From an uncultured virus (IMG/VR IMGVR_UViG_3300035208_003294) (Duplodnaviria; Heunggongvirae; Uroviricota; Caudoviricetes): a stretch of 64,000 bases of DNA. Of this stretch, positions 27,422 to 52,065 are shown piece by piece. Every line of letters begins with the position of its first letter. Position 1 is the stretch's first letter. Location: IMG/VR virus record IMGVR_UViG_3300035208_003294. The stretch is one strand, 5' to 3'. Below the pieces are notes generated by a model. That model did no database searches and was not told the origin of the DNA. It was given only the letters and a program-made list of their open reading frames with translations. Both the position numbers and the translations under genes were made by a program.

Positions 27422-28150
27422 TTAGATATAATTCAGAATATCAGAGTAGACAACTTCTCCAATTCCATCCAGTTCCTTGACTTCCTTGAGCTTGTCGAAG
27501 AGCTCCTTGTCCTTTAGTTTGAGGATATCTGATAAAGACTTTATCTCGAAAGCCTCCATCAAGGTCTTGGCTCTTGTCGGGCCGATGCCCGGGATACGAC
27601 ATATCATCGAACAGACAATGTCTTCCTTTGTGTACTGCCTTCGGCCGTTAAAGACCGTGATGGGTTCAGGAACTTTACCGTCGTGAGACTTGAGGATAGC
27701 GCATAGCGCAGCCCAAGGTATCTCCCCGTCATTGCATACGAAGATAGGTCTTACCTTGTATCTGATGGCTATGCTTAATTGAGCCCCTATAATGGCATGA
27801 GGATGTAGCCCATTGTCATACGGGTCCCCGACAATAAGCATGAACTTATGCTCGAAGTTATCGTACATGTTCTGAAGCTGGACAAGCATGTGGTCATCTT
27901 CGTCTGTGATGGAAGTCCCGAAATCCTTCTTCTTACGCTCGATACAGACATCACCGCACACATAGTCGCCAATTGGAAGATTAGAATATTCTACTTCTAC
28001 GTCGTACATCCGGCCTTTGTACTTGTAGCCCTTCTCCTGGAACTCTTCCAGTTGGTGCCGTGCGTCCAAGTCCCGTTCCCTGTTGTCAACTTGTAATTTT
28101 ATCAGTTCCCTTGCCCTGCGCATGCGCTTCGGTTTAGGTTCTTCTTCCAT
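27422..28150 (-). CDS. ERCC4/XPF-family structure-specific nuclease with HhH
   Basis: VDNRE, GDY....CIERKK..D, IPGIGP, LDGIGE. Confidence 0.9.
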   Translation of the reverse strand: MEEEPKPKRMRRARELIKLQVDNRERDLDARHQLEEFQEKGYKYKGRMYDVEVEYSNLPIGDYVCGDVCIERKKKDFGTSITDEDDHMLVQLQNMYDNFEHKFMLIVGDPYDNGLHPHAIIGAQLSIAIRYKVRPIFVCNDGEIPWAALCAILKSHDGKVPEPITVFNGRRQYTKEDIVCSMICRIPGIGPTRAKTLMEAFEIKSLSDILKLKDKELFDKLKEVKELDGIGEVVYSDILNYI

Positions 28151-28478
28151 TTTGATTAAAAATTACCATTGAATATAAATATAACCGTGAAGGGATTTCC
28201 ATCGCAATTACATTGCTTCCCATTATAAACGATTGTTCCCGTCTCATCTATGCGAACGCGATACTTTTTTTTACACAAATCACATCTTACTAAACATGTT
28301 TTATTAATTGGCATTTCATTCATTTCTCTCATTTTTAGATTTACTTATTTACACGAAATTGTAAAATTTTATCTCTCTCGTCCTTCCGTATTCGTGTTTC
28401 TGCCCCGACTACAAGGTCTAATGAGGCTGAAAACCTGAATGGGGTTTACCTGCTGATGAAAGCGTTAAGCGTCCTAAA

Positions 28479-28952
28479 TCATATCATGGCATTAAACTCA
28501 TCTTCTTTCAGATATTCTGAGAGCTTAATTATTCGTTCTTTTATTTTCTCATAGCCCCGAACCTTTTTGAAGTCCGGCTTAGATTTCGATAGAAGTTCGT
28601 ATTCTGATACGGGAATTAAAACACAACCTGTTTTATTCTCTGCATATCTTCTAAGTATTTGAAAAGGCCGTTCTCCAGGGGAAAAAGAAGGCATCCATCT
28701 CACTTTTTTACTGTCATGGTCCATCATTAAGAGAACAAAATCCTTAGTCGGCCCCTCTACTTCTGAAATGTCTTTCAATGCCTTACCTATCTCTCGCATT
28801 TCAATCCGCCCATCCTCATCAAGCATAGGGTCTTTTGGGTCGTATTGAAGCTCTGCTTTTATCAGTTCAGCCGCCTCTTTCTTTGTCTCGGCCATGATAT
28901 AATATGCGTCTTTGTAATACGCTGAAAAGCGCCACACCTTATTATCCATCAT
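28479..28952 (-). CDS. Hypothetical protein
   Basis: 157 aa ORF. Confidence 0.7.
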   Translation of the reverse strand: MMDNKVWRFSAYYKDAYYIMAETKKEAAELIKAELQYDPKDPMLDEDGRIEMREIGKALKDISEVEGPTKDFVLLMMDHDSKKVRWMPSFSPGERPFQILRRYAENKTGCVLIPVSEYELLSKSKPDFKKVRGYEKIKERIIKLSEYLKEDEFNAMI

Positions 28953-29269
28953 TCGTCCTCCTCTTTACTTCCTGTCTCTTTTGCTTCGGTGTCAATGAGT
29001 TTCATAATGTCTTTGTTCACAAGACCAATAGGGACATAAATATAGTCATCGTTTGCTGGATTCCCAACATTATTTTCAAGAAAGTCCGACAAGTTCCTTA
29101 TCCTGCTTTTATCATCAACGCACACATAAAGCGTGTCCATAAACCAATAAACCATTCCTTTAATTAAAACCATTTCATTCCTCCATCTTCTTTTTACATC
29201 GACCACAAATAGCGTATTTTTCCTCCCAGTTAAAAGCCTCCCCGGCCTTTTTACATCCTTTATAGACAC
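28949..29269 (-). CDS. Hypothetical cassette gene ending ETGSKEEDE
   Basis: C-terminus encoded by the junction repeat. Confidence 0.6.
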   Translation of the reverse strand: MSIKDVKRPGRLLTGRKNTLFVVDVKRRWRNEMVLIKGMVYWFMDTLYVCVDDKSRIRNLSDFLENNVGNPANDDYIYVPIGLVNKDIMKLIDTEAKETGSKEEDE

Positions 29270-29350
29270 TATGCGACTTTTTACAATTTTCCCAGTTCTT
29301 CTTTCCCTGAATCCTCAAAGGATCATCTGGAAACGTATCAAAATAGGCCA

Positions 29351-29662
29351 TTATCCTTTATCCTCTTGGGGTTCTGTAATAATTGTCCATAGGTCTGCTT
29401 GTAGGTTAATAGACTCTCCTTTGCATAGCCATCGATTATGTATCTTGTCATACCTTACAAGTTGTTTGACATTTCCTTGGTTTGTATTGCATACTAAAAT
29501 CTCTTTTCCGTCATGAGGAATAGAGTTTATAGGCATCCAAACGGTCTTTATATTCCTTATATCCCTTTCTAATTCTTCTCGTTCCTTTCTTTCAACGCCT
29601 TCAAATCCTCGATGTATCTGCTCTTTAAGACTTTTTCCAAGAGCGTTTATTTTACGTGTCAT
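29351..29662 (-). CDS. DUF551-like small phage protein
   Basis: WMPINSIPHDGKEILV...W....P. Confidence 0.6.
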   Translation of the reverse strand: MTRKINALGKSLKEQIHRGFEGVERKEREELERDIRNIKTVWMPINSIPHDGKEILVCNTNQGNVKQLVRYDKIHNRWLCKGESINLQADLWTIITEPQEDKG

Positions 29663-29698
29663 TTTGAATCCTATTCGTTATCCTCTTTACTTCCTGTC

Positions 29699-30016
29699 TC
29701 AAATGCCCGCAGTATTCTCTTGTTCTGGTTTTGATTCCTTGATGCTTACAATTATATCCATTCCAAGAGCCTCCTTTAATGCTTGCTCGACATTATCTTT
29801 TATTTCTGCCGTTATCAAAGCGTCTGGGACCTTTTCTTTTGGAACCACCCATTTAGCCTCTAGTCGTGGTCTTTCAAATATCTTATCTGGAAGGTCTACC
29901 TCTATTTTCATGCTTATTTCCCCCGCCTTACAGCTAGGATTTGCTCCAAGCTTCGCGATTATATGATTCTGTTTGCGATTATCCTTTTTAAAAATCATAA
30001 AGCCCCTGTATATCAT
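29699..30016 (-). CDS. Hypothetical cassette gene
   Basis: Stop codon overlaps the junction repeat. Confidence 0.7.
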   Translation of the reverse strand: MIYRGFMIFKKDNRKQNHIIAKLGANPSCKAGEISMKIEVDLPDKIFERPRLEAKWVVPKEKVPDALITAEIKDNVEQALKEALGMDIIVSIKESKPEQENTAGI

Positions 30017-30252
30017 TTTCGGCCCTCAACAATTATTCCAGCATCTTTTAGAAGAATCTTTAAGTCCTTCCCAGAGCTAGCATTATCCATAAGGATATAA
30101 CCCCCTCTATCGTAGCTATCGCCTTCTGGCTCCTTTTTAACGATGTCTGCAAAAGCATCCATGATACTCGCTTCCATAGCGACCTGCTTTTCATATAACG
30201 CCTTTAAACCTTCAAGTTGAAGGTACTCCATATAAGTAATCTTTGTAGCCAT
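30013..30252 (-). CDS. Hypothetical cassette gene
   Basis: AAAATG start right after a junction repeat. Confidence 0.7.
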   Translation of the reverse strand: MATKITYMEYLQLEGLKALYEKQVAMEASIMDAFADIVKKEPEGDSYDRGGYILMDNASSGKDLKILLKDAGIIVEGRK

Positions 30253-30340
30253 TTTGAACTTTATTTAATCGCCTCTTGTCTTTCTGTCTCAATCGTAGTC
30301 ATTGTTCAACGTGTTATATCCCCCCTGATGAAAGCGTTAA

Positions 30341-30425
30341 TGGTTATGGCTGGGAATCGAACCCAGCACATCTTGATAGACAGCGACCTTTTAAGGAAGC
30401 TCCGTTACCCATTCGGCACATAACC
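30341..30425 (-). tRNA. tRNA-like element, Leu(TAA)-like, atypical or degenerate
   Basis: GGTTATG/CATAACC acceptor, CCG-AATGGGTAA-CGG D arm, CTTAAAA loop, long variable arm, GCTGGG-TTCGATT-CCCAGC T arm; anticodon stem pairs poorly. Confidence 0.55.
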
Positions 30426-30454
30426 ATGCAAATCATTCGTATTTGATGAAAGCG

Positions 30455-30733
30455 TTATCCTTTATCCTCTTTATGCCCGTCGAGGGCACCTACTGGGCTT
30501 CCTGACTCTTTTGCTTTCTTCCAGTCGTGATACATAGAGCAGTCGGAGCAATCAAGATAACAAAGTTTCTCGCACTCCTGCTTTATTATCTTACAGATTC
30601 GGACCCGCTTAATAGTCCACATACGGGGCCCTCTTAATCCATGCTTTACCGCCCACTTCTCATCGTCCATGTTACTCTTTACTTCCTGTCTCAAGGGTTC
30701 CCCATTGTGAGGCCATAGCCTCGGCGATCCCAT
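30455..30733 (-). CDS. Small Cys-rich cassette gene (start probably 30670) ending KEDKG
   Basis: C..LC..DCSDC. Confidence 0.55.
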   Translation of the reverse strand: MGSPRLWPHNGEPLRQEVKSNMDDEKWAVKHGLRGPRMWTIKRVRICKIIKQECEKLCYLDCSDCSMYHDWKKAKESGSPVGALDGHKEDKG

Positions 30734-31244
30734 GGTAAGTTCTTGCCCGGTCCCTTGCCCGGTTCGGTCCGGGCGCCATTCTATGTACTCGATGTTCCCG
30801 GCCTTGAACTATGTTTGTCGGTGTGAGTAATGGAAGTCCTTTAAGCCATAGGCAGGTCGCTTTAGTCTCTCCATGCCCAAACATCCAAGGCTGAATAATC
30901 TGGTCGGGTTTCCGGTATATACGGGACATGATACCTATCGGATTTTCTATAAACATCTTAGGAATGGGGGCCTTTGTTATCTTTAGGAATGTTTCAATTG
31001 CGGCCTTCTGCTCTTCCTGCTTATATTTGAACCAACGAGCCCCCGAAACTGCAAGATGCGTACATTCCGGAAAGAAACCGCCTAAATCATACTTCTCTGC
31101 ATAAAGTATATCGAAAATATCTCCTTGATAATGCTTTCCGGGCTTCTCTGTCGGCAGGAGATCACACGAAATAACATCGTGTCCCATTCTCGTAAAGGCA
31201 TCCCTGCATTCTCCCGAACATTCAAACCCAAAGATTATTTTCAT
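30672..31244 (-). CDS. Phage-type C5 cytosine DNA methyltransferase-like protein
   Basis: FECSG..RDAF, SCDLLP, P.CTHLAVSGARW, IENP, GIAEAMASQW. Confidence 0.85.
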   Translation of the reverse strand: MKIIFGFECSGECRDAFTRMGHDVISCDLLPTEKPGKHYQGDIFDILYAEKYDLGGFFPECTHLAVSGARWFKYKQEEQKAAIETFLKITKAPIPKMFIENPIGIMSRIYRKPDQIIQPWMFGHGETKATCLWLKGLPLLTPTNIVQGREHRVHRMAPGPNRARDRARTYHGIAEAMASQWGTLETGSKE

Positions 31245-31247
31245 ACG

Positions 31248-31631
31248 TTAGCCCTCATCCTCTTGTCTTTTTGTCTCTTCTGACTTTAGCTTTTCTCGTA
31301 GTAGTCGGCAGGTTTCCATCAAATCAACAATCTTGGCGGCCTTCTCCACATTCATAAGTTTCAACTCCGATATTCTTTCAACAAGTTGCTTGTCCAATGC
31401 ACCCATACTCGTAATCGTTGATTCTCTCGCTTCTAAAGTCTCTTTTAGGTTTGCTATTTCCACATCTTGTTCTTTGTGGTCCGGGAAATAGTAGTTTTCC
31501 ATGCAGGACATAGAACAGAATATTTCTGTGTTTGGACCGTCTTCTTCTGGGGGTTCCCGGACTACGACCGTATCAACAGTAGAGCATATCCCCTTGCATT
31601 CTTTGCATTGAGAAATATACATGTTATCCAT
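31248..31631 (-). CDS. Zn-finger plus coiled-coil cassette gene ending ETKRQEDEG
   Basis: CKEC...FCSMSC. Confidence 0.7.
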   Translation of the reverse strand: MDNMYISQCKECKGICSTVDTVVVREPPEEDGPNTEIFCSMSCMENYYFPDHKEQDVEIANLKETLEARESTITSMGALDKQLVERISELKLMNVEKAAKIVDLMETCRLLREKLKSEETKRQEDEG

Positions 31632-31670
31632 TTTATTGAATCCTATTCTTTATCCTCTTGTCTTTCTGTC

Positions 31671-31949
31671 TCAAACGATTAGTTTTAAAACCCGTTCTCC
31701 TTTTGGAATTAGTACTCCTTCCATGTAACCAGTCGCTCTGTCTGCGCTATTTCTTAAGAACGATCCATAAATCGGATGAACTTTGCTTGAATATAGAACA
31801 ACACACGCAATACAGGGCAGAGCTTCCTCGCTTCCAGTAAGATAGTGTATGCCTGTTTGCTCCATAACCCTACGTATCTCTTGGACTATCCGTAACTGTT
31901 CTCTTTGTTCTTTGTTGAACCAACCCGTATAATCAATCCTAAAATTCAT
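31671..31949 (-). CDS. Hypothetical cassette gene (start MNFRID after AAGGAGG)
   Basis: Shine-Dalgarno-containing repeat upstream; stop overlaps the junction repeat. Confidence 0.65.
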   Translation of the reverse strand: MNFRIDYTGWFNKEQREQLRIVQEIRRVMEQTGIHYLTGSEEALPCIACVVLYSSKVHPIYGSFLRNSADRATGYMEGVLIPKGERVLKLIV

Positions 31950-32123
31950 CGTTTCATTCCCTCCTTTTTTCTTTTGATTTCTTGTTGTATTTGTTGAACG
32001 AACATTTCTCACAGCGATTAAGACACATTGGTTTCCCATCAGGGCTTAATCGAGTTCCACATCCCATTCTTTTAAACTTTTCGGTCATCGTTTATCAGCC
32101 TCTTTTCTTTCTGTCTCTTTCGA

Positions 32124-32435
32124 TTATCTCAACAATTCTGTAAGTTCGTCTGCTTCCTTGCACTGCCAAGAACGCAATTCATCTCTTCTTCTTTCAATCT
32201 TTTTCTTAAGTTCCTCATACTTACGAACTGTCGAATTTAATCCCGCTATCTCCTGGTCCTTCTCTTTGATTATACGCTCGTGTTTCTCATACGTTAATCC
32301 GATTATTACTGCACCATCATCCAGCAATCCCTTCCAGTTCTTTGCCTCGCCAAATATTACAGTACAAACCGGCTTTACAGAGTATCTAGGATTCTTTTCC
32401 TGGATAATGTCGTCCCCCTCTAGCTCTTTACTCAT
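32124..32435 (-). CDS. Hypothetical cassette gene with coiled coil
   Basis: AAAGGAGGGAATGAACGATG start context. Confidence 0.7.
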   Translation of the reverse strand: MSKELEGDDIIQEKNPRYSVKPVCTVIFGEAKNWKGLLDDGAVIIGLTYEKHERIIKEKDQEIAGLNSTVRKYEELKKKIERRRDELRSWQCKEADELTELLR

Positions 32436-32564
32436 CGTTCATTCCCTCCTTTATGCCCCTAATGTATTCACATCCACATAGACGACATTTTCCATTAATG
32501 TGTTCTACTTCTAAATGTCCGCAATTATCACAGTATTCCTGACCGTTTTTCCAGTAAGTCCTAG

Positions 32565-32747
32565 TCATCCTTTACCCTCTGTCTCATTTGATTCTTTTAT
32601 TTCCTTGAGAACTCTGCGACTGATCCATCTTTCTGAAATAATCACTTCTTTATTTATCTGTGAAGATTCCGCAGTATCCTTATCGACACAAATAGCATGT
32701 TCTTTTAAGACCTTCTCTATTGCCGCTTTAACCTGTTCTTCATCCAT
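32565..32747 (-). CDS. Small cassette gene ending ETEGKG
   Basis: Same start repeat; degenerate junction repeat at the 3' end. Confidence 0.6.
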   Translation of the reverse strand: MDEEQVKAAIEKVLKEHAICVDKDTAESSQINKEVIISERWISRRVLKEIKESNETEGKG

Positions 32748-32772
32748 CGTTCATTCCCTCCTTTTTGCCTCT

Positions 32773-33102
32773 TTACCACGATATGATACATAGCTCTATA
32801 TGTTCGAACTCAAAGAATGATACGTCTTTTACTCGTCTTTGTATTCGTTCCATTGTCTCTAAGTTCTCAATCTCAACAAACAAAGGATCGCTTTCTCGCC
32901 AAGATTTTAACTTCTTAAGTCGTTCTTCGCCATGCAATAAACGTCTAACTGTGTTGCTCTTTATTCCTGATTTTTCCTTTAGAAAGTAACCGGGCCAACT
33001 CTTAAAACGAACAATAGGTTTTTCAGGGGGCAAGCCGCCGCACTCTAAGCAACTTCCAGTTATTACGTCAACAACCCTACCATGCTTCCAACAAGTTTCC
33101 AT
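32773..33102 (-). CDS. ASCH/PUA-like (DUF3850-like) protein
   Basis: FKSWPGYF....SGIKSNTVR. Confidence 0.55.
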   Translation of the reverse strand: METCWKHGRVVDVITGSCLECGGLPPEKPIVRFKSWPGYFLKEKSGIKSNTVRRLLHGEERLKKLKSWRESDPLFVEIENLETMERIQRRVKDVSFFEFEHIELCIISW

Positions 33103-33154
33103 TTTTGAATCTTATTTAATCTTCTCTTTGCAATCTGTCTCAAATGTAAATAGA

Positions 33155-33256
33155 TGACGCCGCCCCGATTTGAACGGGGGCCTCGAGGAACTCGGCAATC
33201 GTAGAATGACAAACAATTACTTTTGCCTCGATACTACCCGACTATACTACGGCATC
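33155..33256 (-). tRNA. tRNA-like element with an expanded anticodon arm (possible intron; identity unresolved)
   Basis: GATGCCG/CGGCGTC acceptor plus A73, TA-GTAT-AGTCGGGTA-GTAT D arm, CCCCG-TTCAAAT-CGGGG T arm; 35 nt between the anticodon-stem strands. Confidence 0.65.
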
Positions 33257-33257
33257 G

Positions 33258-33545
33258 TTAATATCCTTTTCTTCCGTGAATTGCCCTATCAAATTTGACA
33301 TCTGAGCAATCCTTTATTGCGGATAGAATCCTATTAAATGCTGCCCATCCCCTTGTGTAACAATCGTTCATGCTCATGTCCTTCGTCTCGAAAACCACAA
33401 GGTGTTTGTAGATTGATGTTCCTCTATCTGCACCAGGGTTTTGCGTGATCTCAAACAACACACTACAACCGTCTGAGTGTTCGCACATCTCTACATAGTA
33501 GAGCTTTTCGAAGGCATCGAATTGCCTGCTTTTAAGAATTGTCAT
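33258..33545 (-). CDS. Hypothetical protein
   Basis: AAAATG start. Confidence 0.65.
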   Translation of the reverse strand: MTILKSRQFDAFEKLYYVEMCEHSDGCSVLFEITQNPGADRGTSIYKHLVVFETKDMSMNDCYTRGWAAFNRILSAIKDCSDVKFDRAIHGRKGY

Positions 33546-33984: not shown

Positions 33985-34018
33985 CTTATATCAAAAAAGA
34001 AAAAAGAAGGCAAATGCC

Positions 34019-35581
34019 TTATATCTCCATCCCCGGCGGTATCTTACCAGCTATCGAGGTTCTGCTTAGCATCTCCTTGACCATCTCGTCCTTCTTCTTG
34101 GAAGTCAGTGGTCCGGTGTCGAGCTTGCCTGGGAGCTCCTTAAGCTGCGGCATCGTGTAGAGGTCAAGGTACTTGGCATCTATGCTGTAGTCCTTCGTCA
34201 TGTCTACGTTTATGTCCTTCGCCAGAAGCTCCAGTTCATCGACTGTCAATTCAGACATCTTGAACTTAAGCTCTTCTTCTCTCAAGGCAAAGAGCTTGTT
34301 CGCAGGAAGTTCCATAAGCACTTTGAAAAGTGACTTATTGCTGGAATTCTCTGCGATTTTCGTCTTAACTTCAGAGGCCCTCGTGGCACCGCTTGACTTT
34401 ATGATGTTAAAGACGCTCAAGACCTCTCGTGCGTGGAGATACTCCGTATCCCACTTGTCGCTCTTTGACCTGCAGATACCCAGAAGAATCGGTGCCTTGT
34501 ATTCCTTTATCCTAACCAGGAGCTTCTTATCAGCTTCCTCTTTGGTCATCTCCTTCTTCTCGGCTTTGCCTTCCTTGGAAGCCGGATCAGTTGGAGCTTT
34601 ATCGTCTTTCTTGGAACTATCTGCTGTCTTAGCCGGAGCTGTTTTGTCCTTTAGCTTGAAGAAAGTCTGATGGCACACTCCGCCGACGATCTTCATCTCG
34701 AGTGCATACTTGGCTCCGTTAGCCATCATGTCCTGCCTTGCTGCTTGTATCTCGCTTGGCTGCAGGACATCGTAATCCTGAACCTTCAGTTCGGACCGGT
34801 CATCGACTGCTATGACGTTGATGCCCTTTAGACCTGCTTTGATGGCATTGATCGCTGCGACCTGCTTCTTGATGAAACATGGGGCGTTAAAGCACTTACC
34901 CTTTACTCCGTCAAGAGTGGCTTGCTTTCCGCCGTTATCCTTGCAGGATTCGCACTCGTCCTTCTTGAACATGGCATTCGCCAGTTCAATGCTGCCTTCC
35001 TTGACTCTATATTGAAGCTCAGAAACGCTCATGCCTTCCTTGACCGCTTTGTCAAGTAGTTCGAGCTTCTTCTTTGGATCAGAGACTTCTATTAGCGCAA
35101 GGCCATGACCTAGCTTTATCTTGTCAGACCTCACAGCTTCTACGACTTCCGGACCGGCCTGGAGCAGCGTAAGCCTGCGCTCTACCCAATCGACGTCCTT
35201 TGAGAGTTCATTGGCTATCCTCTTTGTGGTCCACTTGTATTCGTCGATGTATTTCTTGCATGCTTCCGCTTCATCAACGGGATTCATGTCTTCCCTTTGG
35301 ATGTTCTCTATCAGCTGCAGAGTGAGGATCTTGGCTGCGTCTCTTTCCTGGGTGTCCGTTATCTTTATCTCGGACCTTCCAAGAGCCTTTAAAGCCCGGT
35401 ATCTGCGCTCTCCCTTGACAAGACGGAATCGTCCATTCTCCAACGGAATGACCGTTACCGCGTCCTGCTGGCCGTGGAGCTTGATGGATTCCGCCATCTC
35501 GTTCTGTCCTTTCTCGTCGAACTGCTTCCTCGGGTTATAGACTACGTCTATTAACCCAATGTCAACCACTTGTTCTGTCAT
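34019..35581 (-). CDS. parB: ParB/Spo0J-family protein with PRTRC-type Cys cluster
   Basis: NPRK.F, GERRYRA, LIENIQREDMNPVDEA, HTH, then C..C..N...Q..L....KCFN..CF..K. Confidence 0.9.
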   Translation of the reverse strand: MTEQVVDIGLIDVVYNPRKQFDEKGQNEMAESIKLHGQQDAVTVIPLENGRFRLVKGERRYRALKALGRSEIKITDTQERDAAKILTLQLIENIQREDMNPVDEAEACKKYIDEYKWTTKRIANELSKDVDWVERRLTLLQAGPEVVEAVRSDKIKLGHGLALIEVSDPKKKLELLDKAVKEGMSVSELQYRVKEGSIELANAMFKKDECESCKDNGGKQATLDGVKGKCFNAPCFIKKQVAAINAIKAGLKGINVIAVDDRSELKVQDYDVLQPSEIQAARQDMMANGAKYALEMKIVGGVCHQTFFKLKDKTAPAKTADSSKKDDKAPTDPASKEGKAEKKEMTKEEADKKLLVRIKEYKAPILLGICRSKSDKWDTEYLHAREVLSVFNIIKSSGATRASEVKTKIAENSSNKSLFKVLMELPANKLFALREEELKFKMSELTVDELELLAKDINVDMTKDYSIDAKYLDLYTMPQLKELPGKLDTGPLTSKKKDEMVKEMLSRTSIAGKIPPGMEI

Positions 35582-38040: not shown

Positions 38041-41000
38041 CTACTGCCACTCCATGCCAGTCACTTTCGGGTTCTGCGTTGATACAGCGCCTTTGACTAT
38101 ATTCCAACCGCTCGGAGTCACAAAGGTCTCCGTAGAGGTTCCTGTGGTAGTCGTAGTTGCCGTCTCCCCCCTGCTTGCCGCGGCTTCAGTTCCCGCGACC
38201 TTCAGGAGAATAGGCGACAACTCCTTAATCTGGCCCTCGACCAATTCAAAGGTAGTTGAAAAATCAACGTATCCCGTTTTTTGTAGGATTAAAGTATAGA
38301 CGCCAGGGTTTAAATCTATTTCTTTCACGGCTGTAGTGACGCCGTAATCATTGCCGTTCAATAGAATCGTGCAACCAGTGGGTTTTGTACTTAAAAGCTT
38401 CAGCTTTGCCATTCCTTCCTTGAAAGTCTTGGCCTGTAGGGTGAACGCAACCGATGTCTTTTCCTCCGCTACAATGTCTACAGTCTGCGGGCCCTCCAAT
38501 GGTTCATAGCCCTGCTTCTCGACGGTGACTTCATACGTTCCCGGGTCGAGCTTCATCGTGGACCTTGTAACCTTGCCGGTATCCTCTCCATCTACCTTTA
38601 TCTTCGCATAGGAAGGATACGAGATGACTTCGAGACTGCCCATCATGGCATTGGTTACGTCCGTCATCTTCTTGAGCTCTACGGCTACCTTGGTCTCCTT
38701 GCCTGCTTCGACCATATCCGCCCTCGAGGCGCTCATGTAGTCCGTCTTGTTGGCGTTCACTGTGTAGAATCCTGGTTCCAAGCCCGTGATCGTTTTCGGA
38801 GTGACTCCCTGGTAGACGACCTTTGACTTGGAACTGACTACGATGTTAGCATAAGTCGGAGTGCTAAGTACAGTTAGGCTTCCTGTATTGAGAGTGGTCT
38901 GCTCTTCAATATTCGTTAAAGTCAGATTGACATAGCTAGCTTCGCCCGCTTTCAAGATAACAACTCTATCAACGTCTGTATACCCTGGCTTCGTGCACTT
39001 TACTGTGTACGTCTCCGGCGGGATCAAAGTTATCGTCTTTGGGGTAAGTCCGTATTCTACTCCGTTTTCAGTTCCCTGTTTCGTGAGCGTTATCGTAGCT
39101 CCGCTTGGAATAGACGAAACGTTCAGAATAGCCGTTGTTACTTCCTGCGTCTTCGTCGTAGAGACTAAGGTAAAGGAAATCTCCTTAGTCTTACCGGCTT
39201 CCACTATTACGCCCTGCTGCTCGGGATCAGTATAGCCATCCTTCTTGACGATTACGTTGTAGCTTCCGGGGGCCATCTCCGACATAGACTGTGGAGTTAC
39301 TCCCTGGTAGACAAGTTCTTCTCCTGTCTTGCCTGCGTATATCCGGCCCATGGTTGGATAGGACAATACCTGCAGGGTTCCTGTCGTAGCAAGAGTCTTC
39401 TTGAACTCTCCGAAAATCTGCTTCGTTGTATTGCGTTCTATGTCAACGGAGAAAGGCAAGTCGAGATAACCCTCCTGTTTTAAGACTATCTGAACCACCC
39501 CCTCTGCGAGCTGGGTGATTGTGTAGTCCGTTAAGTTGCCCGTATCCTTGCCATTGAGATAAATCCTTGCGTTCTTCGGCATGGACATGACTTTGACTGC
39601 TCCCTTGGTAGCATCAGCTTCAAACAAGACATAAAGGCTTGTGGTCTCTCCGTCCTTGGTCTTTATCTGGTTGAAGCGCTGTTCCGCATAGGTTACGTCC
39701 GTACCTATGTAAGAAGCAGTAAAGTCAAACGGAGCATCTGCAGCTACTGCAAATGTGCATGGAGTGTTCTGTTCCTTGCCCGTCGTCACGTTGAGTATCT
39801 TGGCTGGCTTGTTTGCGGTGAACCTGACGCTTCCCTTTAAGTCCGTGATACCTGGAAGCGTGATGGCGAGATAGTTTGTCTTGCCTGCTTCGACAAGAGT
39901 TGTTTTATCCTGCTTTGTGTATCCAAGTTTCCAGGCCTTTATTCCATACGTCCCAGGTTCAAGACTCTCTATGGCCTTTGGAGTAACTCCGTATGATTCT
40001 TCAGATCCGTCCTTCTTTATCAGCGTTATCTCCGCACCCGTTGGGTTAGAGGTAACATAAAGAACCCCCGTAGTTGACGTGGTTCCTGGTACGAGCTTCT
40101 CTAAATCAAAGAAAGCCTCATACGTCTTACCGGCCTGAATTAGAACTGATTGCTGCTCAGGGTCCTTGTAGAGACTTCTCTTAACATAGACGTTATACGT
40201 TCCTGGAGTCAAATCAGTCATGACTTGTGGCGTGACTCCGATATACGTAGCGCTTTGTTGGCCTGGCATCTGAACGAAGGCAGATGCCATAGTGGGATAG
40301 CTCAAGACATTCAAGGTTCCGACCTTGCTATCCTCATCCTTGAATACGACATAGATTTGTCTAGTCTCTCCAGGATTGACATATTGACTGATCGGCTCGG
40401 AATCCTTATAGCCATCCAGCTTAAGGACTGCGTTATAAACACCCGCACCGAGATTGGCAATAGTTGCAGGAGTGAACTGTCCGGAGTCTTCTCCATTCAG
40501 GAAAATCTTAGCCTTGGACGGCAACGATTCTATCCTCAACGAACCTGTCGTCTGTGTGCCCTCAAAGAACGCGGCCCTTGAGATAGTCTCGCCTGCAGGC
40601 ACGCTCAACCCTGTAAATGGTTGGGTCGTATAAGCCTTGTCTGTTTCCTTGCATTCCACAAGAAAATTGTACTCCGCAGGATACGCATCGACTTTGAAGG
40701 AACAAGGAGTGTCCTGTACTTCGTCCGTCATCTCGTTCGTTACCTTCGCCGCCTTGTTCGACGAGAACTTAATAACCCCTGTCTGAGAAGCATTCGAAGT
40801 TAGGAGTATCTCCTTTGAGTCGTTGGTCTCCAGGTCTATCTCTTGCGGAATGATAACCTTGCCTTCCAGCTCTCCGGAGACAACATAGTGTCCTCTAGGA
40901 AGCTCGAAAGTCGCCAAGGTGTACTTGTAGGTGTTACGTCCGTTCAAGTAAACAAGAACATTGGCTACGTCCGATTTAACCTTCAATGTGCCGATACCTC

Positions 41001-44000
41001 CGGACCACTTGCCCAAACCTTTAGACTTCGCTAAAGTCTCGGCTGCCGTATATTTAGGATAGGAAATAATTGCACTTGGACCGAACATGTTGTAAACGTC
41101 TGAATTGCCAAGGGAGACAGATAATTCTCCGACGTCCGTAAAGTTCCCGAAGATCTCTGGGTCCGGCAGTTCTACCTTGCCCAATATACGTGCGTCCCTT
41201 TCATCTCTCTTGACCGTCTTCTGGTTCTGCGTTTCCGTATATTCTGCTTTGCTTGGCTCCGTCGAAATCCTGACATCTCTTCCAGATATCAGCGTACTAA
41301 GCCACATGCTGGACTCAGATGCCCAAAACTCTGCAGGCAGATATTGTGTAAGATTGTTTGCATCTTTGTAACTATGGGCTAGTTCCGGGGCATTGATTCC
41401 TATTATGCGGACCGTGTCCGTTACCCAAGTATCATCTTCTATCTGGATTTTGACTTCTATTGTATCTCCATCAGCTATTCTTCTCACCCAAGCGTAGAAA
41501 GGCTCTTCACCTATGACCTTAACTCCTCCGGCCCCTACAGTTGTTCCTGTGCCTGTACCTGTGCCTGTTCCAGTTCCACTCCCCAGAGTTCCAGAACCTC
41601 CATAATTCGACATGAACTCTTCAGGGTTCTCGGTATAAAAAACACCCATCTCATAAATCGAATAACCCGCTCCATTGAAAATCACAAGATTTTCTTTGTT
41701 TAATCCTCTAGAAATACATTGGAGTTTTATGAAACGATACTGTTTTATCTCAGCAAATGGCACGAATTCAACTGTTCCTAGACCACCCGTTTTTGTGAAC
41801 AATAACGTCCAATTTGTCCCATCGTTAGATGCAAGAATTTTGTATTCTTTAGCGTACGCTTCCTCCCAGAAAATCCTAATGATATTGAATTTCTGAACGC
41901 TGCGCATGTCGAATGAAATCCATTGATCATCTGTATATTCTGATTCCCAACGAGTAGTGGTATCGCCATCTATTGCATTTTTTGCCGGTTGCTTTTCAGA
42001 AGAAGCTGTAACTATCGCTCCCTGCAATAAATTCGTTAAACTCTCTAGTCCGCTTGTTCCTTTTACTTCTAAGGTGGAGTAATCCAAATCTACTCGTGAA
42101 GGATAGCCTAAGGAAGTTAATTTGTCGTCGTTAAGCTTTAGCTGATAAAGGAAGCTATTCATTCGCTTATCAAATATTTCTCCTAAAATTTGCCCGGTCT
42201 TGACAACCCGTACATATTGACTGTTTAACCATGGAACTTCATTTTTAGCGTAATCCAAAGCCAATCGAGCATTTGCGTAGTCTCTGATAGTCATGAATTT
42301 CTGATAGCCCGCCTCCAGAGCGCCTATGATGTTGTCTATCATTCCCCAAGTTGCTATTCCCGCGGTCTCATATAAAGTAAATAGACCAATGGCTGCGAAC
42401 TTCCAATGTCTTCGCATGACTGTTAAAGGATTAAGTGAATATTCTCTAGCTCTAAGGTAATCGTCGAAATATTTTATCGATTCAGTGGATCCAGTGATCT
42501 TCTGTTTAAATGCAGCGCCATCTGATAGCGACATCTTGTCTTTAACAACAAGCCTATCAACACGCCTTATTAATTCGTCTTGCGTAACTCCCTTGCTACT
42601 CAGACGTCTGCTTAGATCGGCAAATGTTTCTTTGACTCCCTGTTGTTTTGCTGTGTCCCAAAACGTCAGCGTGTCATCATAATAATTATAAGCACGATTT
42701 TCTATAATTTTTGAAAGCTTTCTGATTTTTTCTATTGGAACACCAGGGAAAAAGGAAGCAGTTCTCTGGATTACTTCCTCACCGGTGCCTCCAAATTCTG
42801 CAGATTTAATGGTAGTTATGAATTCATCAAACTCATTTGAGAGAGTAAATCCATCAGCTAGAACGTCCTTGGTTTTGAATTCCGCCAGTCCATCTACGCC
42901 AACTTGAAGGGCCTTGAGTTGTGGATCAACAGTATCGAAGATGTTATCGTATTTGACGGCATCTGCTAAATTATCCAGAATATCATCGTATTGAATAGTT
43001 GATGCATCATCAAACGCGTTGCTTATCGACCAGACGATCTCCTTCTCTGTCTGTTGATTTAAGATTTCGTCTGGTATGGCATTTACTATCTTTGCTCCAT
43101 TCTCTTCCATTGAAGTCTTCACTTCTGAGAAAGCACCGTCTATATCGGAAGAAATTTCTGCTTTTGCTGCTTTTGCCTTGGAAGAACATGAAGTTGCCTG
43201 GTCTGCAAAGCTCTTTCTTTGCCGCAAAGCCATGCGGAATTTTTCCTCAAATTGAGGTTTTGTTAAGGCACTGCCTTCAAAAGCATCCAAATATCTGTCT
43301 ATTGATTTTGTGGACCAACGTATCCCCTGTGTAATAGAACTAAGTAAGTCAATTGCTGGTCTCTCTCTTATGAAAACTGTTCCCTCAGATGTTACGATCC
43401 AACCCGAGTGATTTCGTAACTGGAACACGAGCTGAGACAAATCCTTTGCTATCAAAGATGCGTAGTCTCCAGCACTTGCGTTCAGTCCTTGCTTAAGTGC
43501 TACTTCATAATTCGTATTATTGACACGAATTCTCTCTATTAAGGTTCTTGTCCAGGTAGACTTAAATGCAATATTGTCTAAGAACTTCATCAAGTCCGTA
43601 AGCATTGTTTTATCTGCGATCCCTAAGGATTTCGCGAACAAACCATGTAACTCCTCTGCTTCCGTTCTAGTGATTCCAAAGACTTTCTTCATGATTTCGT
43701 CTACCCACTCCGTCTTTGAAATCATTGAAAATTCTTTTCCGGCAACATTTGCCATAGCCTTTATCTGTGCCGAAGTAACTTCCGCCCCTAATTGAATTGG
43801 ATCGGTTGAAAGGGCTTTTCGTATTGTTGGCATTTCTTTAAGCGTCTTAGCCGCTTCTGCTTTAAGGGCATCGGCTGTTATGCTAGTTACTTTAGCCACT
43901 TGAGCCCAGTTCTCTAGGACCTTCTTATCAGCGCCCAAAGCGACTTCGTTGAACCAAGCACTTATAACATTCACTGGTTTGCCCCAAGCTTCAGCTAATA

Positions 44001-51200: not shown

Positions 51201-52065
51201 CTACTCCGTCAAGTTTCCTAGCGACACTAATACCGGTCTGATACCAATCAGTCTTCCTGGACTTGACGACTTCTAAGACGCTCTCGACAGTGTACGCTTC
51301 ACCGTGGAACTTGCCCTTCATCGGCTTAAGCTGCTTGAACCAGGTAAAAGGCTTGACAAGTTCATCTGCGCTATCATAGAACCTATCTGCGTAATCCGGT
51401 TCATTCACTTGAGTTATAGAGAGCTTGTCTTTAGGAACAAGAACAAGGTCATATAAAGGCACATACGAAGTGTTCGGTCCGTAGGCTGAAGGACTGTACT
51501 GGACTGGCGCATTCTTTTCCCCCTTGAAAATCTCATCCAAGATTCTCGTAAGCTTGACATTCAAAGAAGCATCTACCCTAACGAACATATTCTGGTCCTT
51601 TGAATCGGCCCTGACAATTATATCCCTGTCATTTGGCTCTCTACCTTTAGCGTAAAGGGTCGATCCGGCCAAGGAAATGAAATCGGGAATCCAAACGATA
51701 GAAGGAAAGTCCGTAGCCTTAATGGCCGGCATCTGCGGCGCGTTGTCATTGCAAACAATGAACTTCTGCTTGCCTTCAGAAAGCTTCCTAAAGGTGAGAT
51801 TGAAGAGCTGCTTGGAGTCCTTCTTCATGGTCTTCGTATTGAACTCCATCTTCATCTCCCCGGATGCGACCCTCTGCGAGATCTCTCCGAGGATCTTCTC
51901 AGCTATGTTGAGCACCGTATCCATTGGATACTTGAAATCCTTTCCGAGCCTCTTAGCATCCGAATACCAGGAGCATGCAAGACTCCAATCGAAAGTCAGC
52001 TCATCGTTTGGTATCTTCCTTGGATTGAAATGCTCCACGTCCGAGATGTCGTTTATTACGCTCAT
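48211..52065 (-). CDS. Fusion protein: Pol-beta-type nucleotidyltransferase-like domain + ATP-dependent ligase + LigD-like 3'-phosphoesterase domain interrupted by an intein
   Basis: LAGS...NDRDII; RKLDG, LIGELE, YYDCVY, EGAYMK, IKYK; HLHIRGTSVHLDLRL...GWTL and HEYFVNG..FNGR. Confidence 0.85.
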   Translation of the reverse strand: MSVINDISDVEHFNPRKIPNDELTFDWSLACSWYSDAKRLGKDFKYPMDTVLNIAEKILGEISQRVASGEMKMEFNTKTMKKDSKQLFNLTFRKLSEGKQKFIVCNDNAPQMPAIKATDFPSIVWIPDFISLAGSTLYAKGREPNDRDIIVRADSKDQNMFVRVDASLNVKLTRILDEIFKGEKNAPVQYSPSAYGPNTSYVPLYDLVLVPKDKLSITQVNEPDYADRFYDSADELVKPFTWFKQLKPMKGKFHGEAYTVESVLEVVKSRKTDWYQTGISVARKLDGVAIQCHTDGEGKVFIATEDGGDITSKLPTLVSLLRKVRTPSILIGELELYEGDKHVPRQGTIGLIHKNVVPENEPDVVFTYYDCVYWDRDIHLSDYLTRLNAPRGLPIGKNFKKLEQVVVHTEQDLAREIKSAADKEGSEGAYMKLLSFKYELDGATLENIKYKRTRQIDVKVVKVHAVEGSDSTWNYLTTLEDGTPSGNTFNTGIKAEVGDVITVDFMNLSKYTDPKTGKSWYNFWAPAVIAKKESGKADSVQTAEELVVASKGSVAEKTFPKRYLVNDVDQYNFVPSETKIWKGMAHLHIRGTSVHLDLRLQISDSELSGWTLFIPKGLSRAATSISDAKDLVNREIVPLIKETLANPLKKFNGTTKLLEPIEWASFESEVEKGGVGATKNNEGFLVIIDEFQVQFGCFPKGEKVLTQSGLLNIEDVHTGDYLLGDKNKWVRVLQTFQRDADSVTTLKIRGMGELNLTPNHRVYAIDRQKVRCLKNHKSTPGWIQSGNLKHGDMVAVPKIKTEVDLYWNIKNQKNRLETNLLIDEDIAWLYGLIMGDGHVADSKPQIEIKVAYTQKYILDRATKIIKDKLGLYYRITKCRGCWSLNFYSTELQVFLRKELYDANRKKTFPIDMLFAKKEILFNFLHGYYDADGRKAVSEKRQLELAAVNPDVQKLTCLALIKLGCVPGGTSKRSKCYKLCWLQDILDLLGGSKASRKHKHVNYLEDEDFVYLRINSVHTKKENQVVYNLETEDNTIYTPIKTHNSNKPDYHEYFVNGKIFNGRIVAVKIENKAEWEKTDEGIMTWMFFKTKTEIPYVITRRAVKKGWIPEHGFSALPREYRNKVPAVSRWWIAKEKDRLKLRDSYVESMKSSLVTDSVSGQFKLKKQIFRGPIVIRTGPSRIMYHLILKNKQGFQEFVSDNELPDTGKFQSTTKDEWNAAGVVPVKTELNPTKATHSEIEDIDGGPFRWLDKAKSIIKLEGKDFKGTFLFSKKEGSDSIQNMKRI
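48937..49977 (-). mobile_element. 347-aa intein with LAGLIDADG homing endonuclease
   Basis: G|CFPKGEKV, LTPNHRV, LYGLIMGDG and FLHGYYDADG, VYNLE...KTHN|S; visibly more AT-rich than its flanks. Confidence 0.93.

What the first reader, a model, noticed from the sequence alone, without database searches (positions are those of the whole stretch)
28949..33256. Cassette-like array of small genes separated by a conserved 19-bp junction repeat
Seen: a same-orientation motif (minus strand GAGACAG(G/A)AAG(T/A)(A/C)AAGAGG, often extended as ..TAGGATTCAAAATG or ..TAAATAA..TTCAAAATG into the next start) recurs 7 times nearly intact and about 4 times partially. Copies are 300-700 bp apart, always at a gene 3' end, and I saw none elsewhere in the window. 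It is read into unrelated proteins, giving shared tails (ETGSKEEDE, ETGSKE, ETKRQEDEG, ETEGKG, EDKG). Cargo is heterogeneous: a methyltransferase, ASCH, DUF551, Zn fingers and tRNA-like elements. Inference: an integron-like or homology-driven gene-shuffling locus in an archaeal virus. The repeat is not an attC-type palindrome and no recombinase is in the window, so the mechanism may be undescribed.
Basis: partly seen in the sequence, partly recalled or inferred. Interest (0 to 1): 0.85.

Follow-up and report, generated by a model that had tools for sequence, protein, structure and literature searches.

The report
Gene-shuffling junction repeats in uncultured virus
An uncultured tailed virus, probably of archaea, joins about eighteen unrelated small genes with a few short repeated junction sequences, and related viruses differ exactly at those junctions, so the repeats look like crossover points for swapping whole genes, a variant of what is known for T4-type phages.

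Summary
The minus-strand motif GAGACAGRAAGWMAAGAGG occurs 7 times in 28960-32117, against 0.02-0.28 expected by chance. Two degenerate copies lie at 32585 and 33141, and there are none elsewhere in the window. Every copy starts 17-41 nt upstream of the next start codon. It is one of four stereotyped junction types (A-D) that occupy 16 of 18 consecutive gene boundaries.

The junctions have no hairpin, no sigma-70 or TATA pattern and no attC-like symmetry. The window encodes no recombinase. So "integron-like" is not supported.

Gene shuffling at the repeats is supported:
- Short metagenome contigs from related viruses share only 21-43-nt islands of 95-100% identity with the window, in unrelated flanks.
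- The one shared gene, a methyltransferase, has different neighbours, and its homology ends 8 nt before the motif.
- A 392-nt two-gene module is identical in two co-occurring genomes, which diverge inside junction copies.
- A 26-29-nt intragenic island marks crossover points in mosaic proteins.

Best reading: these are boundary ("linker") sequences that couple translation of adjacent genes and serve as homologous-recombination sites. The closest knowns are T4 PeSLs and the motif reported for halovirus HGTV-1. I rate it a new variant of a known kind, of moderate interest.

The parts
28960..28978 (-). Junction A copy. Read in frame as the ETGSKEEDE tail of a 74-aa ORF. The stop overlaps the next start (ATGA).
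29682..29700 (-). Junction A copy, long form, extended to the start codon at 29662. It holds the TGA stop of the upstream 105-aa ORF.
30272..30290 (-). Junction A copy, long form, following the tRNA-like element. 41 of 43 nt are identical to L104 and 38 of 39 to L109.
30674..30692 (-). Junction A copy (1 mismatch). It adds the tail TLETGSKE to the methyltransferase.
31259..31277 (-). Junction A copy (1 mismatch), read as the ETKRQEDEG tail. It precedes the methyltransferase start.
31654..31672 (-). Junction A copy, long form. It holds the TGA stop of the upstream 92-aa ORF.
32099..32117 (-). Junction A copy. The upstream gene stops 2 codons before it, in the same frame. 27 of 27 nt are identical to L039 741-767.
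32567..32585 (-). Degenerate junction A copy (GAGACAGAGGGTAAAGGAT), read as the ETEGKG tail, with an ATGA stop/start overlap.
33123..33141 (-). Degenerate junction A copy, long form, following the tRNA-like element. 35 of 36 nt are identical to L039 264-299.
32745..32764 (-). Junction B (AAAGGAGGGAATGAACGATG). 22 of 22 nt (window 32745-32766) are identical to L110. The 20-nt core also matches L006 and L039 exactly.
32432..32452 (-). Junction B copy. It is read in a different frame (KEGMNDE tail) than in relatives (KGGNER).
31947..31967 (-). Junction B copy with one extra A, read in a third frame (RRE tail).
29351..29367 (-). Junction C (AAGAGGATAAAGGATAA), giving the EDKG tail. It is the upper edge of the module shared with a second genome.
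30455..30471 (-). Junction C copy, giving the EDKG tail.
30443..30458 (-). Junction D (core TAACGCTTTCATCA), upstream flank of the tRNA-like element.
30325..30340 (-). Junction D copy, downstream flank of the tRNA-like element.
28453..28468 (-). Junction D copy after the 157-aa ORF. Contigs from three runs join it to 28961.
32245..32273 (-). Intragenic island ATAATCAAAGAGAAGGACCAGGAGATAGC (encodes IIKEKDQEIA). It is 100% identical over 25-29 nt in L006, L039 and L109, and is the hinge of the mosaic proteins.
28976..29367 (-). Two-gene module (58-aa and 74-aa ORFs) carried identically by two co-occurring genomes.
   Evidence: X2 record 11, depth 21.1 against 12.4 and 9.17 for the flanking records
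30672..31244 (-). Small DNA methyltransferase-like gene, the only cargo gene shared with a relative (L039, 83.7% nt identity).
33155..33256 (-). tRNA-like element with a 30-nt insert in the anticodon arm. Its 3' end and the following junction A are conserved in L039 (32 of 33 nt).
30342..30425 (-). tRNA-like element with a long variable arm and a UAA-type loop. It scores below the thresholds.
34019..35581 (-). ParB-like gene at the upstream edge of the array, followed by a hairpin plus T-tract (34007-34020).
27422..28150 (-). ERCC4/Hef-like nuclease gene with HhH motifs, at the downstream edge of the array.

Best explanation
Window 28.4-33.3 kb is the hyperplastic accessory-gene region of a tailed virus of about 77.8 kb that assembles as a circle. 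The host is probably archaeal.

The small unrelated genes are chained by four stereotyped junction sequences. It usually supplies the last codons and the stop of the upstream gene, and it ends a few bases before, or overlapping, the start codon of the next gene. I read it as a translational-coupling junction inside one long same-strand operon.

The same 20-40-nt sequences recur at many boundaries and in related co-circulating viruses. They therefore act as short conserved boundary ('linker') sequences where homologous recombination inserts, deletes and swaps whole genes. At one intragenic island, recombination swaps protein halves.

Shown here: the repeats, their fixed place at gene boundaries, the lack of structure, the identity islands in unrelated flanks, the breakpoints at the junctions and the mosaic proteins.

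Inferred: that the exchange is homologous recombination (the enzymes are unknown), that the junctions drive translation of the downstream gene, and that the array is one transcript.
For: 1. Enrichment. There are 7 copies against 0.02-0.28 expected by chance, all on one strand, within 3.2 kb.

2. Position. I catalogued 22 copies: 9 in the window and 13 in L039, L104, L109, L110, L006 and L106. In 21 of them a start codon of an ORF of at least 30 codons lies 17-57 nt after the first base of the motif.

3. Junction coverage. By my reading, 16 of 18 consecutive junctions between 33260 and 28450 carry type A (9), B (3, plus one B-like), C (2) or D (3). Some boundaries carry two types.

4. Stop/start geometry. 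Stops and starts overlap (ATGA) or lie within 10 nt of each other at these junctions.

5. Nucleotide-level signal.
- Junction B is read in three frames: KEGMNDE, KGGNER and RRE.
- GAGACA is invariant in all 22 type-A copies, while the following codons change amino acid.
- Two copies hold the upstream TGA in another frame, and three follow tRNA-like elements rather than an ORF.

6. Identity islands. There are 12 island pairs of 21-43 nt at 95-100% identity between the window and relatives. The flanking 40 nt are 17-40% identical, with one exception at 55%. Only the methyltransferase is shared at protein level.

7. Breakpoints at junctions.
- L039 keeps the tRNA-like 3' end plus junction A, and the methyltransferase (83.7% identity over 551 nt). 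It has four different genes between them.
- Homology to the window stops 8 nt before the motif.
- Close methyltransferase relatives end at SQWG, without the tail.

8. Shared module. In run X2, a 392-nt contig (28976-29367, 0 differences) has depth 21.1. The flanking main-genome contigs have 12.4 and 12.1, and a variant contig has 9.17. The joints 28468>28961 and 29367>30665 recur in X2, X3 and X4.

9. Mosaic proteins at the 26-29-nt island.
- P0251 equals P0247 residues 1-34 (34 of 34 identical) plus P0244 residues 83-143 (55 of 61).
- P0253 matches the P0245 N-terminus (43 of 49) and the P0242 C-terminus (44 of 51).
- P0242 and P0243 share 54 of 63 residues before the hinge and 5 of 40 after it.
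- P0250 and P0252 share 53 of 57 before and 3 of 35 after.

10. Hybrid A/B junctions exist at L039 749 and L006 3731.

11. One-operon reading. Only two T5 runs lie on the coding strand between the terminator after ParB and 28.5 kb.
Against: - No recombination event was observed. All evidence is comparative and rests on short metagenome contigs of 1-4 kb. Their membership of the same virus lineage is inferred from shared islands and one gene.
- The tool itself warns that contig joints at under 95% likeness or with sides under 30 nt can come from repeats. Several joints have sides of only 20-28 nt.
- X1 and X2 may both be the source sample, so they are not independent support.
- The expression role is untested, because no RNA run was available.
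- Outside the array, 61 of 79 genes lack a Shine-Dalgarno-like sequence. So the GAGG or GGAGG in the junctions may not act as a ribosome site in this host.
- The invariant GAGACAG core has no assigned function.
- 16 of 19 copies next to an upstream ORF keep that ORF in one frame. Pure recombination does not predict this. It hints at selection on the tail peptide or at common descent of the 3' ends.
- About 13.8 kb of the genome lies outside the window and was not examined.
Confidence: 0.6

Rival explanations
1. The motif is first of all an expression signal for one temporal class of genes. It could be a promoter for a virus-specific or modified polymerase, an RNA processing site, or the operator of a translational regulator. 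Gene shuffling at it would be incidental, or merely apparent.
For: - The copies have a fixed orientation and a fixed place just upstream of starts, and they are confined to one genome region.
- Conservation is at nucleotide level and independent of reading frame.
- Repeated motifs before each gene are promoters in T4-type phages (PMC2839356, abstract and section 13). A TATA-like motif is reported before many HGTV-1 ORFs (passage in PMC3950731).
Against: - There is no TATA-like or conserved A/T-rich element in the 20 nt upstream of the 22 copies.
- Only 1 of 9 copies is picked up by the sigma-70 scan. Promoter-like sites are not enriched (21 found against 16.8 +/- 4.2 in shuffles).
- In four copies the motif ends 0-10 nt from the start codon, which leaves no room for a leader.
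- There is no hairpin and no Rfam family.
- This reading does not explain the intragenic island or the mosaic proteins.
Confidence: 0.2
2. A dedicated site-specific system, integron-like in function, is at work. A virus-encoded recombinase or nuclease recognises the GAGACAG core and cuts or exchanges cassettes there.
For: - The 7-nt core is invariant in all 22 copies, all in the same orientation.
- The array is flanked by a ParB-family protein and a Hef/XPF-like nuclease.
- The relative L039 has a tyrosine recombinase gene right after the methyltransferase (Phage_integrase, 35.8 bits against a cut-off of 27.1).
Against: - The motif has no dyad symmetry and no attC-like fold. Junction folds are weaker than shuffles in 8 of 9 cases.
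- 0 of 92 window ORFs hit a recombinase family.
- The L039 fragment scores 27.6 bits against a cut-off of 265 on the integron-integrase model. Its best match is the archaeal XerA type, at 45.5 bits against a cut-off of 220.
- Crossovers also occur at three other, unrelated junction sequences and at an intragenic island. That fits homology better than one recognition site.
Confidence: 0.08
3. The repeat is kept for the peptide it encodes. A charged C-terminal tag, (K)ESKETERKE or ETGSKE, would be shared by many small proteins, for example for targeting, packaging or turnover.
For: - 14 of 22 copies are read in one frame as gene tails. In 2 more, the upstream gene is in that frame but stops 1-2 codons earlier.
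- 6 of 13 representatives of the IKEKDQEI family end in KET-type tails.
Against: - The E and T codons are always GAG and ACA, while the next residues vary: G, E, K or D, then S, R, G or C, then K, Q or P.
- Two copies are used out of frame and three are non-coding.
- Methyltransferase relatives work without the tail.
- Junction B is read in three frames.
Confidence: 0.05
4. The array is an assembly or adapter artefact, or a chance effect of the purine-rich composition.
For: - The region is strongly purine-rich on the coding strand.
- Two unrelated chance loci, L096 and L100, show what I recall as transposase-adapter letters in front of a GAGACAG match.
Against: - Local-composition controls give 0.02-0.06 expected copies against 7 observed.
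- The same arrangement is found in a second assembly, with 8873 of 8873 nt identical, and in an 18-kb contig of run X1 with 0 differences over 11 kb.
- ORFs run through the copies, and the letters after the core are conserved too.
- 49 genome hits and 110 other metagenome or viral hits are single copies.
Confidence: 0.01

Closest known systems
PeSLs (promoter-early stem-loops) of T4-type phages (Arbiol et al. 2010, PMC2839356: abstract and section 13 read; Comeau et al. 2014, PMC4122927: abstract read)
   Same: These are short repeated cassettes at gene boundaries in hyperplastic regions full of ORFans. They span the upstream stop to the downstream start. Recombination between copies explains insertions, deletions and replacements between relatives.
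   Different: PeSLs are sigma-70 promoters plus a stem-loop terminator in non-coding DNA. Here there is no promoter pattern and no stem-loop. The repeat is purine-rich and mostly translated as the tail of the upstream gene. There are four junction types plus an intragenic island. The host is probably archaeal. Mini-circles were not tested.
Conserved motif before most left-arm ORFs of halovirus HGTV-1 (Sencilo et al. 2013, known to me only through a passage in the review PMC3950731)
   Same: It is an archaeal tailed virus. HGTV-1 gives the best large-terminase match to this virus (22% identity). A repeated motif precedes many ORFs and has been proposed to regulate transcription and to shuffle genes as PeSLs do.
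   Different: The HGTV-1 motif is described as a TATA-like box plus an inverted repeat. The motif here has neither. I did not locate the HGTV-1 motif myself: the 30-kb stretch fetched was the structural module.
Short conserved boundary (linker) sequences in the modular theory of phage evolution (as summarised in PMC3029335, two passages read)
   Same: Homologous recombination at short sequences shared between otherwise unrelated modules.
   Different: That paper notes that such sequences cannot be found at most mosaic boundaries. Here they sit at 16 of 18 consecutive boundaries and are 95-100% conserved between genomes.
Integron gene cassettes (attC sites and the IntI integrase; features recalled from general knowledge)
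   Same: A same-orientation array of promoterless, unrelated small genes, each with a repeat at its 3' end.
   Different: There is no attC-like imperfect palindrome, no IntI, and no attI or Pc. Crossovers occur at several unrelated sequences.
Junction-repeat mini-gene arrays noted earlier in this scan (e1-7845151, e1-6341262 and others; unchecked AI notes)
   Same: A stop / ribosome-site / start junction is repeated between tiny genes, and relatives differ at the junction.
   Different: Those are other genomes, and several have paralogous cargo. Here the cargo is unrelated and an intragenic crossover island is also seen.

Membership tests
Integron | An IntI-type tyrosine recombinase next to the array | tested here: not met
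   0 of 92 window ORFs hit a recombinase family. The L039 recombinase fragment scores 27.6 bits against a cut-off of 265 on the integron-integrase model. About 13.8 kb of the genome lies outside the window and was not examined.
Integron | attC: an imperfect inverted repeat that folds into a hairpin at each cassette's 3' end | tested here: not met
   There is no inverted repeat at any junction. Nine junction folds have z-scores of -0.40 to +1.13, and 8 of 9 fold more weakly than the shuffle mean.
Integron | A same-orientation array of mostly promoterless, unrelated cassettes | tested here: met
   All genes lie on the minus strand. No pair among 19 proteins is paralogous. Promoter-like sites are not enriched.
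PeSL-type regulatory cassette | A strong host-type early promoter in each repeat | tested here: not met
   The sigma-70 scan finds 21 sites against 16.8 +/- 4.2 in shuffles, and only the 31672 copy is flagged. There is no conserved TATA-like element upstream of the 22 copies. Promoters of unknown type cannot be excluded.
PeSL-type regulatory cassette | A stem-loop terminator or attenuator in each repeat | tested here: not met
PeSL-type regulatory cassette | Lies between ORFans in a hyperplastic region and spans the upstream stop to the downstream start | tested here: met
PeSL-type regulatory cassette | Differences between relatives have their breakpoints in the repeats | tested here: met
   L039 against the window. 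The shared 392-nt module and the recurring joints in X2-X4. The relatives are short contigs, so the support is partial.
PeSL-type regulatory cassette | Circular excision products (mini-circles) formed between neighbouring repeats | not testable with these tools
   Only assembled contigs were available. Raw reads or PCR would be needed.
Boundary-sequence (linker) recombination | Short stretches of near-identity flanked by unrelated sequence in different genomes | tested here: met
   12 pairs of 21-43 nt at 95-100% identity, with flanks at 17-40% and one at 55%.
Boundary-sequence (linker) recombination | Recombinant products whose two sides match different parents | tested here: met
   P0251, P0253, P0242/P0243 and P0250/P0252. 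Hybrid A/B junctions.

The most novel reading that the evidence does not exclude
The invariant GAGACAG core and the other purine-rich islands may not be passive homology patches. They could be recognition or nicking sites for a virus-encoded enzyme. The Hef/XPF-like nuclease or the PRTRC-type ParB protein, which bracket the array, are candidates. This virus lineage would then run a programmed, integrase-free cassette-exchange system that also shuffles protein halves at an in-gene site.
Probability: 0.1. Interest if true: 0.85.

Novelty: new variant of a known kind. Interest (0 to 1): 0.5.

Why it matters
Phage and virus genomes are mosaics, but the sequences at which modules are exchanged are rarely visible. 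One paper notes that conserved boundary sequences cannot be found at most mosaic joints (PMC3029335, passage read).

Here almost every boundary in a 5-kb accessory region carries such a sequence. The same sequences are near-identical in several related uncultured viruses whose genes are otherwise unrelated. One of them lies inside a gene and marks where protein halves were swapped.

This gives a concrete, testable example of linker-guided gene and domain shuffling outside the T4 group, probably in an archaeal virus, and without the promoter and terminator content of PeSLs. It does not reveal a new class of recombination machinery.

Tried and rejected
- Whole genome: none is held for this window.
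- IMG/VR. The motif gave 5 single, chance-like hits. The ParB and ERCC4 proteins gave no relatives. The intragenic island and junction B gave 0 hits.
- GTDB genomes. The motif gave 49 single hits in unrelated bacteria and 2 archaeal MAGs. None had further junction features, so I found no provirus and no host.
- Phage records. At DNA level only pieces of the methyltransferase match.
- Protein searches. ParB has no close relative: the next best is 37% identical over 35% of its length. The 103-aa array protein found only itself in the word-indexed search.
So I could not count how many other contigs carry each cargo protein.
- RNA evidence: no RNA holder was listed among the sequencing runs. Expression and transcript ends are therefore untested.
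- Rfam: nothing at gathering score in the window, and only a sub-threshold tRNA-Sec-like match in the region.
- Protein atlas on the 715-aa protein: no usable hit.
- HGTV-1: the 30-kb stretch I fetched was the structural module, so I did not see its motif. A 2026 paper on the HGTV-1 host does not mention it (0 occurrences of five terms).
- Adapter artefact: considered and rejected. The conserved letters go beyond the shared 7-9 nt, and independent assemblies agree.
- Antisense partner: the full motif does not occur on the plus strand of the window.
- A joint 29693>32113 with three letters between recurs in X2-X4 (table 5c). Its side lengths are not given, so I use it only as a hint.

Full report
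**The observation.** On the minus strand, GAGACAGRAAGWMAAGAGG occurs 7 times with at most 1 mismatch, between 28960 and 32117. Whole-window shuffles give 0.28 matches on average, and 0 of 100 reach 7. The coding strand here is very purine-rich, so I repeated the control with local composition. In 300 Markov-1 simulations and 300 triplet shuffles of 28401-33300, the means were 0.02 and 0.06 and the maximum was 1. A looser core adds a copy at 33141, and a degenerate copy lies at 32585. No copy lies on the plus strand or outside 28.9-33.2 kb. A scan of the near-identical 77,715-nt metagenome contig found exact copies only in the same array. Spacing is 395-722 nt. The shared tails ETGSKEEDE, ETGSKE, ETKRQEDEG and ETEGKG are real.

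- Every copy starts 17-41 nt upstream of the start codon of the next ORF.
- The motif is one of four repeated junction types:
  - A is the motif itself. It has a long form that runs on to ...TTCAAAATG.
  - B is AAAGGAGGGAATGAACGATG, at 3 boundaries.
  - C is AAGAGGATAAAGGATAA, at 2 boundaries. It is the source of the 'EDKG' tails.
  - D is TAACGCTTTCATCA, in 3 copies. Two of them flank a tRNA-like element.
- By my reading, 16 of 18 consecutive boundaries between 33260 and 28450 carry one of these.
- Stops and starts overlap (ATGA) or lie within 10 nt of each other.

**Genomic context.** The window belongs to a tailed virus. PHROGs finds a large terminase and a portal protein. The best terminase match among phage records is the haloarchaeal virus HGTV-1 (22% identity over 97% of the protein, E 2e-11).

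A second assembly of the same genome is circularly permuted relative to the window:
- 8873 of 8873 nt are identical on one side and 99.94% on the other.
- The contig break falls at window 29187-29245.
- The two contigs are 77,715 and 77,908 nt long, so the genome is about 77.8 kb and probably circular or permuted.

The array lies between a ParB-family gene, which is followed by a hairpin and T-tract, and a Hef/XPF-like nuclease gene.

An archaeal host is plausible but not shown. In favour:
- the terminase match;
- the Hef-type nuclease;
- archaeal structural neighbours of that nuclease;
- a tRNA-like gene with a 30-nt insert.

Against: the nearest ParB relatives are bacterial.

Outside the array, 61 of 79 genes have no Shine-Dalgarno-like sequence and start in a TAAAATG-type context. 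The G-rich junctions are therefore unusual for this genome.

**What the junction is not.**
- It has no inverted repeat.
- Nine 91-nt junction RNAs fold no better than shuffles. Z-scores run from -0.40 to +1.13, and 8 of 9 are positive.
- Sigma-70-like sites are not enriched (21 found against 16.8 +/- 4.2). Only one copy is flagged.
- No TATA-like element is conserved in the 20 nt before the 22 copies.
- No Rfam family matches.
- None of the 92 window ORFs scanned hits a recombinase family. About 20 short plus-strand ORFs from my rough gene list were not scanned.

So neither an attC/IntI integron nor a PeSL in the strict sense is present.

**Nucleotide signal or peptide?** I catalogued 22 type-A copies: 9 in the window and 13 in related contigs.
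- 14 are read in one frame as the tail of an upstream ORF of at least 45 codons.
- 1 lies inside a small ORF in that frame.
- In 2, the upstream gene is in that frame but stops 1-2 codons earlier.
- 2 hold the upstream gene's TGA in another frame.
- 3 follow tRNA-like elements.

GAGACA never varies, not even synonymously, while the following codons change amino acid. Junction B is read in three different frames. Close relatives of the methyltransferase end at ...SQWG, without the tail TLETGSKE that the window's copy has. The conserved unit is therefore nucleotide sequence. The strong preference for one frame remains unexplained.

**Relatives.** The metagenome scan gave 115 stretches with an exact match, almost all of them single chance-like hits. 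The exceptions:
- the window's own genome;
- three contigs from the sister data set and one more from the window's own data set (L006, L039, L104, L106);
- one contig from another project (L109 and L110), with at least five copies in 1.25 kb.

These contigs share with the window only islands of 21-43 nt at 95-100% identity. The flanking 40 nt are 17-40% identical in 22 of 23 flanks and 55% in one. At protein level only the methyltransferase is shared.

L039 is the clearest case:
- It begins with the same tRNA-like 3' end and junction A as the window (32 of 33 nt).
- It has four different small genes where the window has seven.
- Then comes the methyltransferase, at 83.7% identity over 551 nt.
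- Homology stops 8 nt before the window's motif.
- After that, L039 carries a tyrosine recombinase gene instead.

Hybrid A/B junctions occur at L039 749 and L006 3731.

**Contigs of public runs.**
- Run X1 holds the whole 11-kb stretch in one contig with 0 differences. X1 and X2 may both be the source sample, so this is not independent support.
- In X2 the assembly splits exactly around 28976-29367. That 392-nt piece has depth 21.1. The main-genome contigs on either side have 12.4 and 12.1, and a 3.8-kb variant contig has 9.17. Two genomes therefore share this two-gene module letter for letter. They part inside a type-A copy (28960-28978) and at the end of a type-C copy (29351-29367).
- The same variant recurs in X3 and X4, with 2 differences in 407 nt. 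Its joints are 28468>28961, which skips the 157-aa gene and runs from a type-D copy to a type-A copy, and 29367>30665.
- Other joints also fall at junctions: 31250>32099 and 32452>33112.
- Several joints have sides of only 20-28 nt. The tool warns that such joints can arise from repeats, so I rely mainly on the shared-module case and on L039.

**An intragenic island.** Inside the 103-aa ORF (32124-32435), the stretch at 32245-32273 is 100% identical over 25-29 nt in L006, L039 and L109. The rest of those genes cannot be aligned at DNA level. A profile of these four proteins found 13 representatives in 1.84 billion proteins. They are mosaics hinged at this island, which encodes IKEKDQEI:
- P0251 has the first 34 residues of P0247 (34 of 34 identical). 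It then matches P0244 residues 83-143 (55 of 61).
- P0253 combines the N-terminus of P0245 (43 of 49) with the C-terminus of P0242 (44 of 51).
- P0242 and P0243 share 54 of 63 residues before the hinge and 5 of 40 after it.
- P0250 and P0252 share 53 of 57 before and 3 of 35 after.

Six of the 13 end in type-A tails and two in type-B tails.

**Interpretation.** The simplest account is that these are short conserved boundary sequences. They have a job in gene expression, most likely coupling termination of one gene to initiation of the next in a long operon. Only two T5 runs interrupt the coding strand between the ParB terminator and 28.5 kb. Because the sequences are repeated and shared, they also act as sites of homologous recombination among co-infecting relatives.

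This is what PeSLs do in T4-type phages (PMC2839356, abstract and section 13; PMC4122927, abstract). It has been proposed for a TATA-plus-inverted-repeat motif in HGTV-1 (passage in PMC3950731). It is also the old 'boundary sequence' model of mosaicism, which is said to lack visible sequences at most joints (passages in PMC3029335).

The present case differs in four ways:
- the repeat has no promoter or terminator content;
- it is mostly translated;
- it comes in four types;
- it is joined by an in-gene crossover island.

I found no printed description of such stop/start junction linkers in my searches, but these were few and keyword-based. Earlier unchecked notes of this scan describe similar junction arrays in other phages and in one marine archaeal virus. 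The pattern may therefore be common.

**What remains open.**
- The function of the invariant GAGACAG core.
- Why one reading frame dominates.
- Whether any enzyme acts specifically on the junctions.
- The host.
- Whether the array is one transcript.

No RNA data and no long reads were available, and 13.8 kb of the genome lies outside the window.

**Verdict.** The reading as a gene-shuffling locus is supported. 'Integron-like, undescribed mechanism' is not. I rate it a new variant of a known kind, with interest 0.5.

Noticed in passing
window 30325-30458 and 28453-28468; L039 1583-2063: The tRNA-like element at 30342-30425 is flanked by direct repeats of TAACGCTTTCATCA, and a third copy lies at 28453-28468. 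In the relative L039 a similar sequence after the methyltransferase is followed by a tyrosine recombinase gene (Phage_integrase, 35.8 bits; best NCBIfam match archaeal XerA type). This could be an integration or attachment module.
   Followed up: partly
window 33155-33256: ARAGORN finds this tRNA-like gene only when introns are allowed. It has a 30-nt insert in the anticodon arm and a non-canonical loop (anticodon read as AAA). Its 3' end is conserved in L039. It starts at the ATG position of a B-like junction (AACGATG).
   Followed up: partly
whole window, minus-strand gene starts: 61 of 79 genes outside the array have no Shine-Dalgarno-like sequence. They start in an A-rich TAAAATG-type context, often with the upstream stop 1-4 nt away. 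This suggests a host with SD-poor initiation.
   Followed up: partly
window 48211-52065: A 1284-aa ORF has an ATP-dependent DNA ligase domain interrupted by intein-splicing and LAGLIDADG domains.
   Followed up: no
window 38041-48204: A 3387-aa ORF has 8 PEGA repeats plus CarboxypepD_reg and F5/8 type C domains. It is probably a giant surface or fibre protein of the virion.
   Followed up: no
L039 1038-1586: The methyltransferase of the relative has an in-frame TAA where the window has CAA. A 95%-identical intact protein (P0121, 182 aa) exists elsewhere. This is either a pseudogene or a sequencing error.
   Followed up: no
window 29187-29245: The second assembly of this genome (77,715 nt) breaks here and is permuted relative to the window's contig (77,908 nt). 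This implies a circular or circularly permuted genome of about 77.8 kb.
   Followed up: partly
L096 and L100 (chance hits of the metagenome scan): In these two unrelated contigs the GAGACAG match is preceded by agatgtgtataa. I recall this as the end of a transposase sequencing adapter. The viral motif shares only its 7-9-nt core with it, and I judge it not to be an artefact.
   Followed up: partly
window 34007-34020 and 33993-34005: A hairpin followed by two T6 runs lies directly after the ParB-like gene. It is the only clear terminator-like site next to the array.
   Followed up: no
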